64,000 nt of DNA from a virus (taxonomy: Duplodnaviria; Caudoviricetes). Positions 50,601-56,439 of the stretch are shown here, in pieces. Below the pieces are notes generated by a model, which was not told the DNA's origin, did not search any database, and saw only the letters and a program-made list of their open reading frames with translations. Both the position numbers and the translations under genes were made by a program. Each line of letters starts with the position of its first letter. The first letter of the stretch is position 1. The stretch lies in IMG/VR virus record IMGVR_UViG_3300035497_000412. The stretch is one strand, 5' to 3'.

Positions 50601-53284
50601 AACGTCTCACCCAACTCTAAGTCTTGAATACGTGCAAATAAAGTTTTAACTTAAACATTCTAATAGGTGCGCAACGCCTACTACGTTCTCTAACGAACTG
50701 CTTATACTTTCGTATAAGAATAGACCATATCTTAACCTATGTGGCATAATTAGGTAAAAATTATTTCTTCCGCCATCAGCTTGCGGTTTTACTCCTCTTT
50801 ACGAGGATGGTCGTTGAACTTAAAAAGGTAATATGTCTAAATTAAGAAATTTTCCTTTACGATAAATTAATTCGTAAAGAGGTATATTATATTTTTTACA
50901 ATATTTTCTTTTTCTTTCATCTCTTTCTTGGATTATCTCCAAAGAATTGTGAAAGATTGCTCTTTGTTCAAAGTGTTGTTCTCCTTGAACTTCAACAAAA
51001 CATATTAAATTATTATTGCTATCATAAACTCCAAAATCAAATCTCTACCGTCCTAACTATTCAACTTTAACCTGTTCTTTAAAAGCAATGTTTCTCTCAG
51101 TCAAATAATTAGCTATATAGGTTTCTCCTTTAGATTTCCATCTATCACATTTTGGACAACCTCTAGAAGCCATTAAACTAATCTAGTCAGTTTTAAAAAT
51201 TAAACCGCATTTTAAACATTTGTATGTATTCTTTTCTAACTGCCCATTGTAAGTCAATAGCTAAATTGTATTATAGAACTCAGCATCAATTCTTTCTTGG
51301 ACTTCAGATAATGATAGCATATTTGCTTGTTTAGAGGTTTCACAATATTTACAAGCAAAAGGACTCTATAGACAAGCCTAAATATTTCTTTTAATATCAT
51401 TTCCACAATTTTTATGATAAATTATAACATTGTCTTTATCAATTTTCTTAATTAGATCAAAATCTTCATTATCTTTATATATTTTTTCTAATTTCTAGTA
51501 TTTAGTAAGCCCTTCTTCTTTACAGCATTTATAATTCTTCAAAAAATTATTTGCTGATTTTTTATAATGTTCTTTCCCACAATAACAACATTTTAAACGT
51601 GCTGGATTTGTAATAGCAGAATATTCTAATATTTCTACCTTTTGTTCTGGAAAAGAATTATAAAATCTTTTTAAAAATTCTTCTTTATCAACTCGTTTAG
51701 ACATTTTTCTTTCTCCTTTATTAAGTGCTGATTGTCCATTCTTGATTAGTTAGGTCTATGCCAAACCATATAATCATCCATTTACTTATTTCTACTTTCG
51801 TTCTTAGTTTAATTATAGAAAGAATTTATATTAAACTAAGCAAAATGGCTTTAGGAGTTTCCAGCTTTTAAATTTTTTTATGCCCTTAACTCAAGGCATT
51901 ACCAACTGTATCTGCGCTCTGCCGTGTTTCTGCGACTACAGTAGCCAAAGCAGAAGTCGCATACTCGTAACTTAAACCTACTGTTTGAGCAACTGCCGCG
52001 TATTTTTCAAGACCTTCTGCAATTTCCGCAGAGCTAGAAGCCGTACTAGCGCCTAATGCTGTAATAACATCAGCATAGTATTCTAGCGATTTAGAACCAT
52101 CCTCGAAGTTGTTCCAAATTGCAGTCATCTGCTCTGAAACGGTTTCAGCACTTTCGCCCGTCACATTAGCTAATTTAATAGTCGTTTCAGTACGCTTAGT
52201 GACGTCTTCTCCTTCCAACTTTACATTCTACTTGGCTCGCTACTTCCAAGCACGTTCTCTTATGAACTGCCATCAGCCTTTCGGCAATGGAATAGACTAT
52301 ATCTTACCTAATTGAGTCTCCCTATAACTCTAGGTATTCCCTTTTCGACTCGCTTGAGCCTACTCCCCTTTGACTGGGGATAGTCGTTGAACCTTCTTCA
52401 TTTTTTTTGAAGCTTGGCTGCGGATTGTCCAATCTTTTACCTTTTTACTCTACCCATGGGAATTAGCCGTGGCCATTAAAGTTTGTCTTTAATTTAGTAG
52501 TAAAAGCTCTAAGGATTTCCCCGCAATTAAAGAATTTTTAGGGCAATAATTCATTTTCCTGACAAAATTACATAAAAAAAATTATAAATACTATCCAAGT
52601 TTTTATAATTCTATCTTCACGAAAAAATATTTATTTTCCCTATTGGAAATAAATTAGGGAAGCATCTGTATAATTTGTGGTAGTTGTACTTAACGCTTTA
52701 GCTGCTTTATTTGCCTATTCTGCAAACTCAGCCATCTAATCCGTATTATATCCAGTAACAATACGAATATTATTTAAGGACTCATTTAAATCCTAAGCAT
52801 ATCCATAAGCAGAAGACAAAGAAGACATAAACCCGTGAATGATAGTAGAAGAAATTTGCCATTTTGCAGTATTCTTCAGAGTAACTGCAAAATCAGATAA
52901 TAATGCACTAGTACGTTTAAGAGGAGCTTCTGCTGTAGCAATAGACTGAGCGACCTTTAAAAATGCCTAATCTCCTTCTACTCCAAGAGCCGATAACTTA
53001 TTGGAATACTCTTGTAAAGAAGTCCCAGACTACTTCAAGGACGCATTAAAAGCTGTTAAATCTAGTTTTCCTGTTGAACTATTAAATGCCTATGATAATG
53101 ACTAACTTAATTGCGCCGCTGCAAGTTGCGCTTCTTGTATTTCCTTGGTTATAGGCAATTGCTAACCAGACACTGTTGACCCAGAACTTAATTTATTTAA
53201 ATCATTTACTAAGGTCTAAATTTGCGTTTTAGCCGCACTAGTGTCTGCAGTAAACGCTAGATTAACATTTAACTGTGTACTCAT
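41664..53284 (-). CDS. Tape measure protein (~3225 aa), four exons: 53284-52637, 52218-51894, 50649-50426, 50144-41664
   Basis: Spliced TMP core: LNNIRIVTG...YTDASLIYFQQG|LEGED...TRQSADTVGNAF|KTLFARIQD...VAG|VRQYTQL. Long Ala-rich helical body with dense TAG=Gln; C-terminal YDTGGYTG.W...LHQKELVLN. All ORF fragments are in frame. Confidence 0.88.
50145..50425 (-). ncRNA. Group I intron 3 of tape measure (281 nt)
   Basis: Exon AGCGGGT pairs with IGS GCTCGCT; P AATTGCGGGGAA, Q AATCCGCAG, R TTCAACGACTA, S AAGATATAGTCT; omega-G at 50145. Confidence 0.9.
50650..51893 (-). mobile_element. Group I intron 2 of tape measure (1244 nt) carrying a homing endonuclease gene
   Basis: Exon TGCCT pairs with IGS GGGCA; P7 covaries (GACCA/TGGTC); ORF lies between Q and R; splicing gives GCC T|TT AAA (AFK). 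Confidence 0.9.
50820..51704 (-). CDS. Intron-encoded homing endonuclease (zinc-ribbon repeats plus Vsr/PD-(D/E)xK-like domain, ~294 aa)
   Basis: With TAG=Q: repeated CxxC(G), GCPKC, SKGE..I..YL, RFDF, VEVQGEQHF, RDERKRKYC..NNIPL; AAGGAG RBS. Confidence 0.8.
52219..52636 (-). ncRNA. Group I intron 1 of tape measure (~418 nt; atypical 5' splice site)
   Basis: Complete P/Q/R/S core closely similar to intron 3; omega-G at 52219. IGS GCCCTA (52544-52539) pairs with exon TAGGG, but the last exon base is A. Confidence 0.8.
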
Positions 53285-55123: not shown

Positions 55124-56439
55124 TTACTCAGCAGGACGCTCAGTGGTCATAGTATCGGGATCAACCACAACACCATAATCATCCACAACATCCATAGACT
55201 TAGTTCTCTGACGCTTCAGCTCACTAGAAGCCTCGCCGCCCACGATCTGCAGGGCCGCAAGAACCTTCTTAGTCTTATTGAAACGAGTATAATCAGGGAA
55301 CGCATCCATAGTAAAGGTAAATGTCAATATCTTCCAGTAAGCTCGCTACTGCTTACTGCGTTCTCTTATGAACTGCTTATAGTTTCCTATAATGTTGAGA
55401 CTATATCTTCATCTTATTTAAATAAATAAGAGATTCCCATTTCCACTCACTTGAGTGTACTTCCTTACGGAATAGTCGTTGAACTTTCTTCTAAAAATAA
55501 GTTTTTAGAAGCTTAGCTGCTGATTGCCCAATCTTTATAATTTTCAAACATTCACGCTTGTCATTACTGACTACGTTGTAGTTTATAAAGCTCTAAGGGT
55601 TTTCCAGCAATTAAGGAATTAAACTTCTCGGCTTGTCATCAAGCCGCCAAGCGCATTTGTCCACTTGGATCTCCACTAGGAGCCATAGTAAATGTGAAGT
55701 TAGACTGAATCTTGCAGTTAGGAATCACAAACTCAGCAGGCCAGTCAACACCGTTAGTATCACGGAATGTAGTAGAAGCTTCCAGATAATAGTTACCACC
55801 GAACTTATCAGCAGTAATATCAATCTGCTGGACGCCAGAAGCCTTCTCAGTATAGTAGTCCACCAGAACCACACAGCCATCATAGAACACACTCAGATCA
55901 TCAGTAGCTTTCAGAGTAATGGTCTTATTCTCAACATCCACAGTCTCAGGAATATAAGGTTCAGAACAAACTTCACCATTCTGCATCATCATCACATAGA
56001 TGTAGTCCTCACCATCAGCATCATAAGGGACATTATCAAGGTCAATAGTCACCTCAGACACCAGATAGTCGTCATCACCATAAGAGCCACTAGAGGTCAC
56101 ATGAACATCAGCAGTCTGCTCAATAGTGTGAACTTTAATAGTATTCTCTTCATCAGGCTCAATCAGACCAGCGCCAGACAGCAGCATGAAACCAGCAGGA
56201 GAAATCAGAGCATCCTCCATGGTAAAGGTGATTGTACGCTCACCGTCCCAAGCGATCAGACGGGGGTTACCATTACCACCCTGGGCATACACTGTAGTAG
56301 CAGCACCTTCTAGACTAGAAGTCTTTAAAGTATCAAAATAAATGACAGGCTCGTTCTTATAAAAAATCTTATTGCCGACTTTTTGCGCTGCCTTAGCTTT
56401 CAGCACGACATCGCATACATTACGAACACCATACTTCAT
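55124..56439 (-). CDS. Major tail (tube) protein, split by a group I intron (exons 56439-55663 and 55324-55124; ~325 aa)
   Basis: MKYGVRNVCDV...YAQGG.GNPRLIAWDGER; spliced C-terminal motif SGDPS|TFTFTMDAFP; high-expression codon bias, no TAG. Confidence 0.85.
55325..55662 (-). ncRNA. Group I intron in the tail tube gene (338 nt, no ORF)
   Basis: Exon CCAAGT pairs with IGS GCTTGG; AAATG pairs with 3' exon CATTT; P AATTGCTGGAAA, Q AATCAGCAG, R TTCAACGACTA, S AAGATATAGTCT. Confidence 0.92.

What the first reader, a model, noticed from the sequence alone, without database searches (positions are those of the whole stretch)
52219..52650. Essential-gene intron with an apparent G.A 5' splice site and a structured P1 insertion
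Seen: the frame and the expected QQG|L sequence require the junction TAG GGA|TTG. The IGS GCCCTA pairs with TAGGG but places its G opposite A, not the near-universal U; the five other complete introns have U.G. About 90 nt with AT-rich hairpins (AATTATAAAAACT/AGTATTTATAATT) separate the splice site from the IGS, bounded by GGAAAAT(A/G)AAT repeats. The ligated exons would form a hairpin TTCCAAT-AGGG-ATTGGAA over the recoded TAG. Inference: non-canonical or regulated splicing, possibly coupled to ribosome behaviour at this TAG. An alternative in-frame junction, CAA T|TA AAG TTG, is also possible.
Basis: partly seen in the sequence, partly recalled or inferred. Interest (0 to 1): 0.7.

Follow-up and report, generated by a model that had tools for sequence, protein, structure and literature searches.

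The report
Group I intron with A at 5' splice site
A self-splicing intron in a rumen phage's tail tape-measure gene, and its three relatives at the same site in other uncultured phages or prophages, all have A where nearly every known group I intron has U; the "inserted hairpins" are only the remains of a lost homing-endonuclease gene.

Summary
Window 52636-52219 (minus strand) is a 418-nt group I intron (Rfam 67.7 bits) in the tape-measure gene of a TAG=Gln phage.

- **Junction:** 114 intron-less homologues read [YF]QQG[LI] without a break. This fixes the junction at GGA|TTG, so A (52637) lies opposite the guide G (52544).
- **Orthologues:** I found three at the same codon: G001, L191 and L287. 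All end exon 1 in GGA and keep the guide G. P1 covaries (UAGGG/CCCUA against CAGGG/CCCUG).
- **Core fold:** 21 of 76 core pairs carry compensatory changes, so the ribozyme fold is under selection.
- **Codon contrast:** intron-less alleles use GGT 95, GGC 16 and GGA 3 times. All four intron-bearing alleles use GGA (Fisher p = 4.6e-6; the four are not independent).
- **Consequence:** the A is not an assembly error. It is a conserved trait of this intron lineage.
- **The 92-nt "P1 insertion":** this is what is left of an HNH homing-endonuclease gene. The gene is intact in G001 and L191, truncated in L287 and nearly gone here.
- **Rejected:** the exon hairpin over TAG occurs only in this genome. 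The alternative junction CAA T|TA AAG fails. A link to TAG decoding is unsupported, because two orthologues have CAG there.
- **Not done:** no RNA or read data could be examined, so splicing after the A is inferred.

The parts
52637..53284 (-). Tape-measure gene exon 1 (216 codons, 10 in-frame TAG=Gln), ending ..Y F Q Q G (TAT TTC CAA TAG GGA)
   Evidence: ORF list under TAG=Q. 114 homologues continue LIY[YF]QQG[LI] without a break.
52638..52642 (-). P1 exon strand UAGGG, which includes the recoded TAG codon
   Evidence: Pairs with CCCUA at 52543-52539. It covaries in L191 and L287: CAGGG with CCCUG.
52637..52637 (-). Last exon-1 base, A (third base of Gly codon GGA), at the place of the near-universal U
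   Evidence: Junction fixed by homologues. Also A in G001, L191 and L287. Intron-less alleles: GGT 95, GGC 16, GGA 3.
52219..52636 (-). Group I intron A, 418 nt, no P2, no ORF, subgroup IA-like (has P7.1/P7.2)
   Evidence: RF00028 67.7 bits at 52590-52272. 21 of 76 core pairs are compensatory across four orthologues; 0 of 500 shuffles reach this.
52545..52636 (-). L1 (loop of P1), 92 nt: remnant of an HNH homing-endonuclease cassette, including the AT-rich hairpin 52610-52580
   Evidence: ATTTTTTCGTG (52628-52618) and ATGTAATTTTGTCAGGAAA (52573-52555, former codons YVILSG) match the G001 intron, which has a 342-aa HNH_3/NUMOD ORF there.
52539..52544 (-). Internal guide sequence GCCCUA; G 52544 faces A 52637
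   Evidence: Same position relative to P3 as guide GCUCGC of intron C. The G is invariant in four orthologues and lies outside any ORF in three of them.
52519..52535 (-). P3 5' strand, J3/4 and P4 5' strand (AUUCUUU AAU UGCGGGG)
   Evidence: P3 and P4 are 100% paired in four orthologues, and P3 has 2 compensatory pairs.
52219..52269 (-). 3' tail: CAGUUCAUAAGAGAACG, a hairpin with loop AAGUAGCGA, then GAAUGUAAAG ending in the terminal G (52219)
   Evidence: The same tail, with a related A-rich end closing in AAG|, occurs in four other introns of this genome and in the orthologues. The hairpin has 4 compensatory pairs.
51894..52218 (-). Tape-measure gene exon 2 (325 nt), L E G E D V T K ..., Pfam PhageMin_Tail
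   Evidence: PF10145 E = 3.8e-17, profile positions 31-138. The next junction, GCC T|..AAG|TT AAA, gives AFKTLF as in homologues.

Best explanation
This is a working mobile group I intron that has lost its homing-endonuclease gene. It sits between the Gly and Leu codons of the conserved YFQQG|L motif of the tape-measure gene.

Its P1 helix is five pairs long: exon UAGGG with guide CCCUA. The conserved guide G closes the helix but faces an A, the last exon base. I infer that the 5' cut is made 3' of this A. A G.A mismatch, or a small two-by-one internal loop (A-1 and the first intron base opposite G), would then mark the cleavage site where other introns use the U.G wobble. Exon ligation follows after the terminal G at 52219.

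The A belongs to the intron lineage. It travels with the intron during homing by co-conversion of the adjacent exon base. It has been kept in four diverged copies even though GGT would encode the same glycine.

The 92 nt between the splice site and the guide are debris from the deleted HNH endonuclease cassette. They are a late stage of the usual gain, decay and loss cycle of homing genes.

Shown: the anatomy, the conservation, the covariation and the origin of the insertion. Inferred: that cleavage occurs exactly after the A, and that splicing is efficient enough to make tape-measure protein.
For: Junction:
- 114 intron-less homologues read [YF]QQG[LI] across the site.
- Listing in-frame joins over a window of candidate donor and acceptor positions around the site gives only 52637/52219 as reproducing the homologue sequence without change or indel.

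3' site:
- Five introns of the genome share the same tail, each ending in AAG|.

Guide:
- GCCCUA lies where canonical intron C has GCUCGC, just 5' of P3.
- The minimum-energy fold of the whole precursor forms this P1.

Orthologues at the same codon:
- G001: TAG GGA|, guide GCCCTA.
- L191: CAG GGA|, guide GCCCTG.
- L287: CAG GGA|, guide GCCCTG.
- So P1 shows a U-A to C-G compensatory change, with A(-1) and the guide G invariant.

Function:
- Across the four orthologues, 90% of cells pair and 21 of 76 pairs are compensatory. 0 of 500 shuffles reach this, and slid controls give 2-7.
- G001 exon 2 stays open for 2729 codons.

Codon contrast:
- GGA in 4 of 4 intron-bearing alleles against 3 of 114 intron-less ones. 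Fisher p = 4.6e-6.

Insertion origin:
- Shared 11-nt and 19-nt blocks flank a 342-aa HNH_3/NUMOD1/NUMOD4 ORF in G001.
- L191 has a 360-aa open frame there (longest stop-free frame; no start codon checked); L287 has a truncated ORF.
Against: - No RNA evidence.
- Established biochemistry says the U.G wobble is critical for the first step (stated in PMC4227781, PMC8395846 and PMC3895272). An A.G site would therefore be expected to react poorly.
- J4/5 and J5/4, the usual wobble receptor, look the same as in canonical intron C. No visible adaptation explains the change.
- The four intron copies share ancestry and the A hitch-hikes with the intron. The codon statistic therefore overstates independent support.
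- The protein cannot tell GGA|..G|TTG from GG|A..A|GTTG. Both give Gly-Leu.
Confidence: 0.7

Rival explanations
1. Both splice sites lie one base upstream (..TAG GG|A ... AAA|G TTG). The exon would then end in G paired with C, the intron would start with the A that faces the guide G (as the U does in group B IStrons), and the intron would end in A, not G. The mRNA would read GGG-TTG, still Gly-Leu.
For: It gives the same protein in all four orthologues. Group B IStrons are shown by RT-PCR to splice after a G of AGGG/TGGG/GAGG sites, one base 5' of the base that pairs with the guide G (PMC4227781). The A would then be an intron base, which would explain its conservation.
Against: It needs a non-G terminal base, against the conserved ..AAG| end shared by five introns of this genome. 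One of these, intron B, has a junction fixed by the Phe codon. P7 with the G-binding site is unchanged from canonical paralogues. This reading has two departures from the rules, where the best explanation has one.
Confidence: 0.08
2. The intron splices poorly or not at all because of the A. These are decaying, defective alleles, or tape-measure protein output is merely throttled by a weak site that is tolerated because few copies are needed per virion.
For: The U.G pair is described as critical (PMC4227781, PMC8395846). The homing gene is decaying in two of the four copies. Tape-measure protein is a low-copy virion component (general knowledge).
Against: Four diverged copies keep the fold through compensatory changes. 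Both long exons stay open. A synonymous A-to-T change would repair the site, yet none of the four has it, although 83% of intron-less alleles use GGT. The host genome is 91% complete and otherwise intact.
Confidence: 0.12
3. The A is an assembly or consensus error and the true base is T (GGT), which would give a canonical U.G site.
For: It is a single metagenome assembly and the base lies before a run of A. Reads could not be examined.
Against: Three other independent assemblies from other samples have the same GGA at the same position.
Confidence: 0.01
4. Splicing uses the canonical-looking alternative CAA T|TA AAG TTG (U at 52642, G at 52224), giving ..YFQ-LK-LEGED.
For: It is in frame, has the same length, and has U at -1 and G at the 3' end.
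Against: It replaces the Gln-Gly (QG) that is conserved in the intron-less homologues: Gly in all 114, and the Gln before it in 114 of 114. The best guide candidate places C, not G, opposite that U. G001 has A in place of the required 3' G, and paralogues also lack it.
Confidence: 0.02
5. Splicing is regulated by, or coupled to, decoding of the recoded TAG inside P1. The exon hairpin or ribosome pausing at TAG would control P1 formation.
For: P1 contains the TAG codon in the window and in G001. The ligated exons of the window can form a -6.3 kcal/mol hairpin over it.
Against: L191 and L287 have CAG at that codon, with the guide co-varied, and they keep the same A(-1). The hairpin is absent from all three orthologues (0 to -1.8 kcal/mol).
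Confidence: 0.04

Closest known systems
Canonical phage group I introns of subgroup IA (T4 td type, SPO1/Twort type; Rfam RF00028)
   Same: P3-P9 core, P7.1/P7.2, guide-exon P1 helix, terminal G, insertion at a highly conserved codon of an essential gene, and a homing-endonuclease ORF in a peripheral loop of the orthologues. DNA similarity of the core to Bacillus, Staphylococcus and Pseudomonas phage introns.
   Different: The last exon base is A, not U, so no U.G wobble can form. No P2. The host gene is a tail tape-measure gene rather than a nucleotide-metabolism or polymerase gene.
Group B IStrons such as BcISt1, and the related Turicibacter IA2 intron (Tourasse et al. 2014, PMC4227781)
   Same: Natural group I ribozymes whose 5' exon does not end in U. 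The target ends in ..AGGG/..GAGG-like G runs. The cleavage site is next to an internal loop in P1. Splicing after a non-U base was shown by RT-PCR for BcISt1.
   Different: IStrons still have a U.G pair, shifted by one base so that U is the first intron base. Here no U is present at -1 or +1. IStrons carry IS607/IS605 transposase ORFs near the 3' end, whereas this lineage carries an HNH homing endonuclease in L1. The exon here ends in A, not G.
Two fungal mitochondrial group I introns with C.G at the 5' splice site (Hur and Waring 1995, Nucleic Acids Res 23:4466; the citation was seen, the paper itself is not held)
   Same: A natural, conserved departure from U.G at the 5' splice site of a protein-coding host gene.
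   Different: There C pairs with G. From the title and my recollection only, the C is thought to be kept by the protein's codon. Here the base is A (a purine-purine juxtaposition). The codon is four-fold degenerate, so the protein does not demand it.
Group I introns with large P1-loop extensions or endonuclease genes in P1 (myxomycete S1389 introns, PMC8395846)
   Same: Long insertions, including endonuclease genes, between the 5' splice site and the guide sequence are tolerated.
   Different: Those are nuclear rDNA IC1 introns with His-Cys box enzymes. Here it is a phage IA-type intron with an HNH enzyme, seen at four stages of decay.

Membership tests
Group I intron (Rfam RF00028) | Covariance-model score at or above the gathering score | tested here: met
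   67.7 bits against 50 at 52590-52272. It was missed by the default-filter run but found again in the whole-genome search.
Group I intron (Rfam RF00028) | Conserved core helices P3-P8 with the P3/P7 pseudoknot, supported by covariation | tested here: met
   76 pairs, 90% paired, 21 compensatory, 0 of 500 shuffles as high; P3, P4, P7 and P8 are 100% paired.
Group I intron (Rfam RF00028) | P1 helix between the end of the 5' exon and an internal guide sequence | tested here: met
   UAGGG/CCCUA in the window and G001, CAGGG/CCCUG in L191 and L287.
Group I intron (Rfam RF00028) | [quoted passage not shown] | tested here: not met
   The last exon base is A in all four orthologues. No nearby U has a G-containing guide.
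Group I intron (Rfam RF00028) | Terminal G at the 3' splice site | tested here: met
   The intron ends ..GTAAAG (52219) and all orthologues end in AAAG. The position is fixed by reading frame and homologues.
Group I intron (Rfam RF00028) | Self-splicing with exogenous guanosine | not testable with these tools
   Needs in vitro transcription or cDNA.
Subgroup IA group I introns | Extra helices P7.1/P7.2 between P7 and the 3' strand of P3 | tested here: met
   Helices 9 and 10 (UCCCC/GGGGA and GGCUC/GAGUC), with compensatory changes.
Mobile intron with HNH homing endonuclease | Intron-encoded HNH/NUMOD ORF | tested here: not met
   The window copy has no ORF, only 11-nt and 19-nt remnants. Orthologue G001 has HNH_3 (E = 1.2e-28), NUMOD1 and NUMOD4. 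L191 has a 360-aa open frame there (stop-to-stop; start not checked) and L287 a truncated one.
Group B IStron | IS607/IS605-type transposase ORFs, and a U.G pair shifted one base into the intron | tested here: not met
   No transposase ORF. The first intron base is A, G, A, A in the four copies, never U.

The most novel reading that the evidence does not exclude
A lineage of natural group I ribozymes has replaced the near-universal U.G wobble at the cleavage site with an A opposite the guide G. It actively maintains that A: 4 of 4 intron-bearing alleles against 3 of 114 intron-less alleles, at a four-fold degenerate codon position. If so, 5' splice-site recognition in this ribozyme class is more plastic than the textbook rule, with no visible change in the J4/5 receptor.
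Probability: 0.5. Interest if true: 0.75.

Novelty: new variant of a known kind. Interest (0 to 1): 0.6.

Why it matters
The U.G wobble at the 5' splice site is the most conserved rule of group I intron substrate recognition. It underlies the design of trans-splicing ribozymes. Published surveys say the last exon base is "virtually always a U (or exceptionally a C)", with group B IStrons as the one experimentally shown exception (PMC4227781).

Four diverged natural introns with A at that position, in an essential gene and with a fold kept by compensatory change, form a ready-made test set. They can show how the ribozyme picks its cleavage site without the wobble pair. The 418-nt copy without an ORF in this window is small enough for direct in vitro work.

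The four copies also show the same intron serving TAG-recoded and apparently standard-code phages (no in-frame TAG in the stretches read), with the guide sequence tracking the Gln codon (UAG against CAG). Together they display a complete series of homing-endonuclease decay.

Tried and rejected
- **Exact-pattern scans of IMG/VR:** the guide-P3-P4 region found nothing, or only G001. The P7.1 pattern found only G001 and L191 in IMG/VR, plus L287 in the genome collection.
- **Wider protein-based searches:** 35 viral and 80 metagenome tape-measure relatives contained no further intron at this site.
- **Endonuclease as query:** the G001 enzyme found only distant HNH proteins.
- **GenBank phages:** only core similarity, and no orthologue in a cultured phage.
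- **Repeated mobile element:** the 92-nt insertion has no second copy in the genome or in the fetched loci. The flanking 11-nt repeats are not a target-site duplication, because the second copy is old endonuclease coding sequence.
- **Exon 1 to exon 2 pairing** (UUCCAAU with GUUGGAA) as a stand-in for P10: rejected on geometry and because it is absent from the orthologues.
- **Alternative U-ending 5' sites** at 52642 and 52633: rejected.
- **A P1 with A(-1) paired to the U 5' of a bulged guide G:** possible in three copies but not in L191, so not adopted.
- **Papers:** the Hur and Waring paper and the Varani and McClain review are not held.
Full report
**Setting.** The window is the reverse complement of bases 2977-66976 of a 156-kb IMG/VR phage record that is 91% complete. 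Genes lie on the window's minus strand and use TAG as a sense codon. The tape-measure gene alone has dozens of in-frame TAGs. The whole-genome Rfam search gives nine group I intron matches at E <= 0.001, six of them above the gathering score. The tape-measure gene (TMP, Pfam PhageMin_Tail) is split by three of these introns. The finding concerns the first one.

**The observation.** Exon 1 (53284-52637) ends ..TAT TTC CAA TAG GGA, and in-frame reading hits TAA two codons later. Rfam's group I model matches 52590-52272 at 67.7 bits against a gathering score of 50. The intron ends ..GAATGTAAAG at 52219 and exon 2 starts TTG GAA GGA. GCCCTA lies at 52544-52539, immediately 5' of P3/J3-4/P4.

**Where the exons join.**
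- I collected 35 relatives of the gene from IMG/VR and 80 from metagenomes. None is interrupted here. 114 read LI[YF][YF]QQG followed by L, I, D or N, and one of these has L for the first Q.
- Listing in-frame joins over a window of candidate donor and acceptor positions shows that only 52637/52219 reproduces ..YFQQG-LEGED.. without substitution or indel.
- The two U-ending options give QLK-LEGED or a three-residue insertion.
- The 3' site has independent support. Five introns of this genome share the tail CAGTTCAT(A/T)(A/G)GAGAACG, a hairpin, and an A-rich end closing in AAG|. For intron B the junction GCC T|..AAG|TT AAA restores the AFKTLF seen in homologues.

**The guide sequence.** Intron C of the same gene is canonical. 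Exon GCGGGU pairs with GCUCGC, with a U.G at the site. That guide lies directly 5' of P3 with no P2, and a P10 (CUAAU with GUUAG) is available. Intron A has GCCCUA at the same place. A systematic scan finds UAGGG/CCCUA as the best pairing for a junction at 52637, with G opposite the A. No G-containing guide exists for any nearby U. The minimum-energy fold of the whole precursor forms this P1, followed by a two-by-one internal loop (A-1 and A+1 against G) and then AAUAA/UUAUU.

**Orthologues.** A scan for the 3' tail motif led to three more copies at the same codon.

| Copy | Source | Exon 1 end | Guide | Exon 2 start | L1 content |
|---|---|---|---|---|---|
| Window | this record | TAG GGA | GCCCTA | TTG GAA | 92-nt remnant |
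| G001 | IMGVR_UViG_3300035517_000267 | CAA TAG GGA | GCCCTA | CTA AAT GAC (LNDEAVQERTE..) | 342-aa ORF |
| L191 | IMGVR_UViG_3300035520_000221 | CAA CAG GGA | GCCCTG | TTA AGT GAT | 360-aa open frame (stop-to-stop) |
| L287 | contig of a Bacilli metagenome-assembled genome from rabbit gut | CAA CAG GGA | GCCCTG | TTA AGT GAT | truncated ORF |

- P1 therefore shows a compensatory U-A to C-G change that follows the Gln codon (UAG in the window and G001, which show in-frame TAG codons; CAG in L191 and L287, where no in-frame TAG occurs in the stretches read).
- The exon A and the guide G are invariant.
- The guide G lies outside any ORF in three of the four copies, so protein coding does not explain its conservation.

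**The ribozyme is under selection.** I aligned the four copies from the guide to the 3' end (alignment A2) and counted a hand-drawn IA-type structure on it.
- 90% of cells pair and 21 of 76 pairs carry changes on both sides. No shuffle in 500 reaches this, and slid controls give 2-7.
- P3, P4, P5, P6, P6a, P7, P7.1, P8 and the last 3' hairpin pair fully.
- G001's exon 2 stays open for 2729 codons, and the window's last exon for 2827.
- These are maintained ribozymes in maintained genes.

**The A travels with the intron.** Among the 114 intron-less alleles the Gly codon is GGT 95 times, GGC 16, GGA 3 and GGG never. TAGGGT, a perfect canonical target for this guide, occurs 26 times. All four intron-bearing alleles have GGA (Fisher p = 4.6e-6). 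The four copies descend from one intron and the adjacent exon base is co-converted at homing, so they are not independent draws. Even so, the intron cores differ by roughly a quarter of their bases, and a synonymous change to T would create the textbook site. Its absence in all four argues that A is tolerated, and probably preferred. An assembly error is excluded.

**The "P1 insertion".**
- In G001 the loop of P1 holds a 342-aa ORF with HNH_3 (two copies), NUMOD1 and NUMOD4 domains. It is preceded by a TATAAT-type promoter-like sequence and an AAGGAG ribosome-binding site. Its stop codon lies inside GCCCTAA.
- L191 has a 360-aa open frame encoding a relative (longest stop-free frame; no start codon checked). 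L287 keeps only the C-terminal third.
- The window keeps 11 nt of the 5' end (ATTTTTTCGTG) and 19 nt of the last codons (ATGTAATTTTGTCAGGAAA, formerly YVILSG).
- The 92 nt are therefore a deletion scar. The second GGAAAATRAAT repeat is part of that old coding sequence, and the first copy is absent from G001.
- The region has no other copy in the genome and folds only slightly better than shuffles.

- The ligated-exon hairpin (-6.3 kcal/mol) is absent from the three orthologues, so I treat it as chance.
- A link to TAG decoding is unlikely, since two copies with CAG show the same A.
- The alternative junction fails on protein conservation, on guide pairing, and because G001 has A at the needed 3' G.

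**What remains open.**
- The protein cannot separate GGA|..G|TTG from GG|A..A|GTTG. I prefer the former because it keeps the terminal G that all paralogues share.
- The latter recalls group B IStrons. These splice after a G of AGGG-type sites, one base 5' of the base facing the guide G (PMC4227781).
- That paper also states that the last exon base is "virtually always a U (or exceptionally a C)". Hur and Waring 1995 report the C.G cases; I saw only the citation.
- I found no report of A at this position. This rests on a limited literature search.
- J4/5 and J5/4 do not differ from canonical intron C, so how the site is recognised is unknown.
- No reads or RNA could be examined.

**Verdict.** This is a real, conserved, non-canonical 5' splice site in an otherwise ordinary mobile phage intron. 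The insertion and the hairpin are ordinary or chance features.

Noticed in passing
window 55300-55720 (minus strand), tail tube gene intron: The coding sequence for FTFTM occurs on both sides of the tube-gene intron (..SNFTFTMAPSG before it, LTFTFTMDAFPDY after it). The true 5' splice site therefore probably lies upstream of the first copy, and part of the apparent exon 1 is intron. The likely site is CAG TCT| with guide GGAC, by eye only.
   Followed up: partly
window 50820-51749 (minus strand); L001 and L005: TMP intron B carries a 309-aa open frame (stop-to-stop; 294 aa from its ATG) with DUF723 and zinc-ribbon hits. L001 has the same intron and ORF at the same site (AFKTLF junction). L005 has the intron there too, but its copy of the ORF is broken by stop codons.
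   Followed up: partly
L120 (G001:C1:26658-26770): Upstream of the G001 endonuclease gene the motif TTTCGTGG(A/C) occurs three times, ahead of a TGGTATAAT promoter-like site and an AAGGAG ribosome-binding site. L191 has TTACGTGGTC in the same place. This may be a regulatory site for endonuclease expression inside the intron.
   Followed up: no
L120:1789-2814 (G001 HNH ORF): The 342-codon endonuclease ORF contains no TAG, although its host gene is dense in TAG=Gln codons. It is therefore readable under either code.
   Followed up: no
window 52626-52660 (minus strand): Exon 1 AUUUAUUUCC is complementary to the intron start GGGAAAAUAAAU and to the second repeat copy. GGGAAAAU also pairs with AUUUUUUC. 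These local hairpins would compete with P1, like the P(-1) helix of Tetrahymena pre-rRNA.
   Followed up: partly
L017 and two other intron-less loci: Three intron-less alleles read CAAGGA at the site. They could be footprints of precise intron loss, or the rare allele type in which the intron first settled.
   Followed up: no
It marks a very widespread phage intron family that could be surveyed for other non-U splice sites.
   Followed up: partly
window 52272-52590: Intron A scores above Rfam's gathering score but was not reported by the default-filter whole-window scan. It appeared only with laxer filters and in the genome search.
   Followed up: yes
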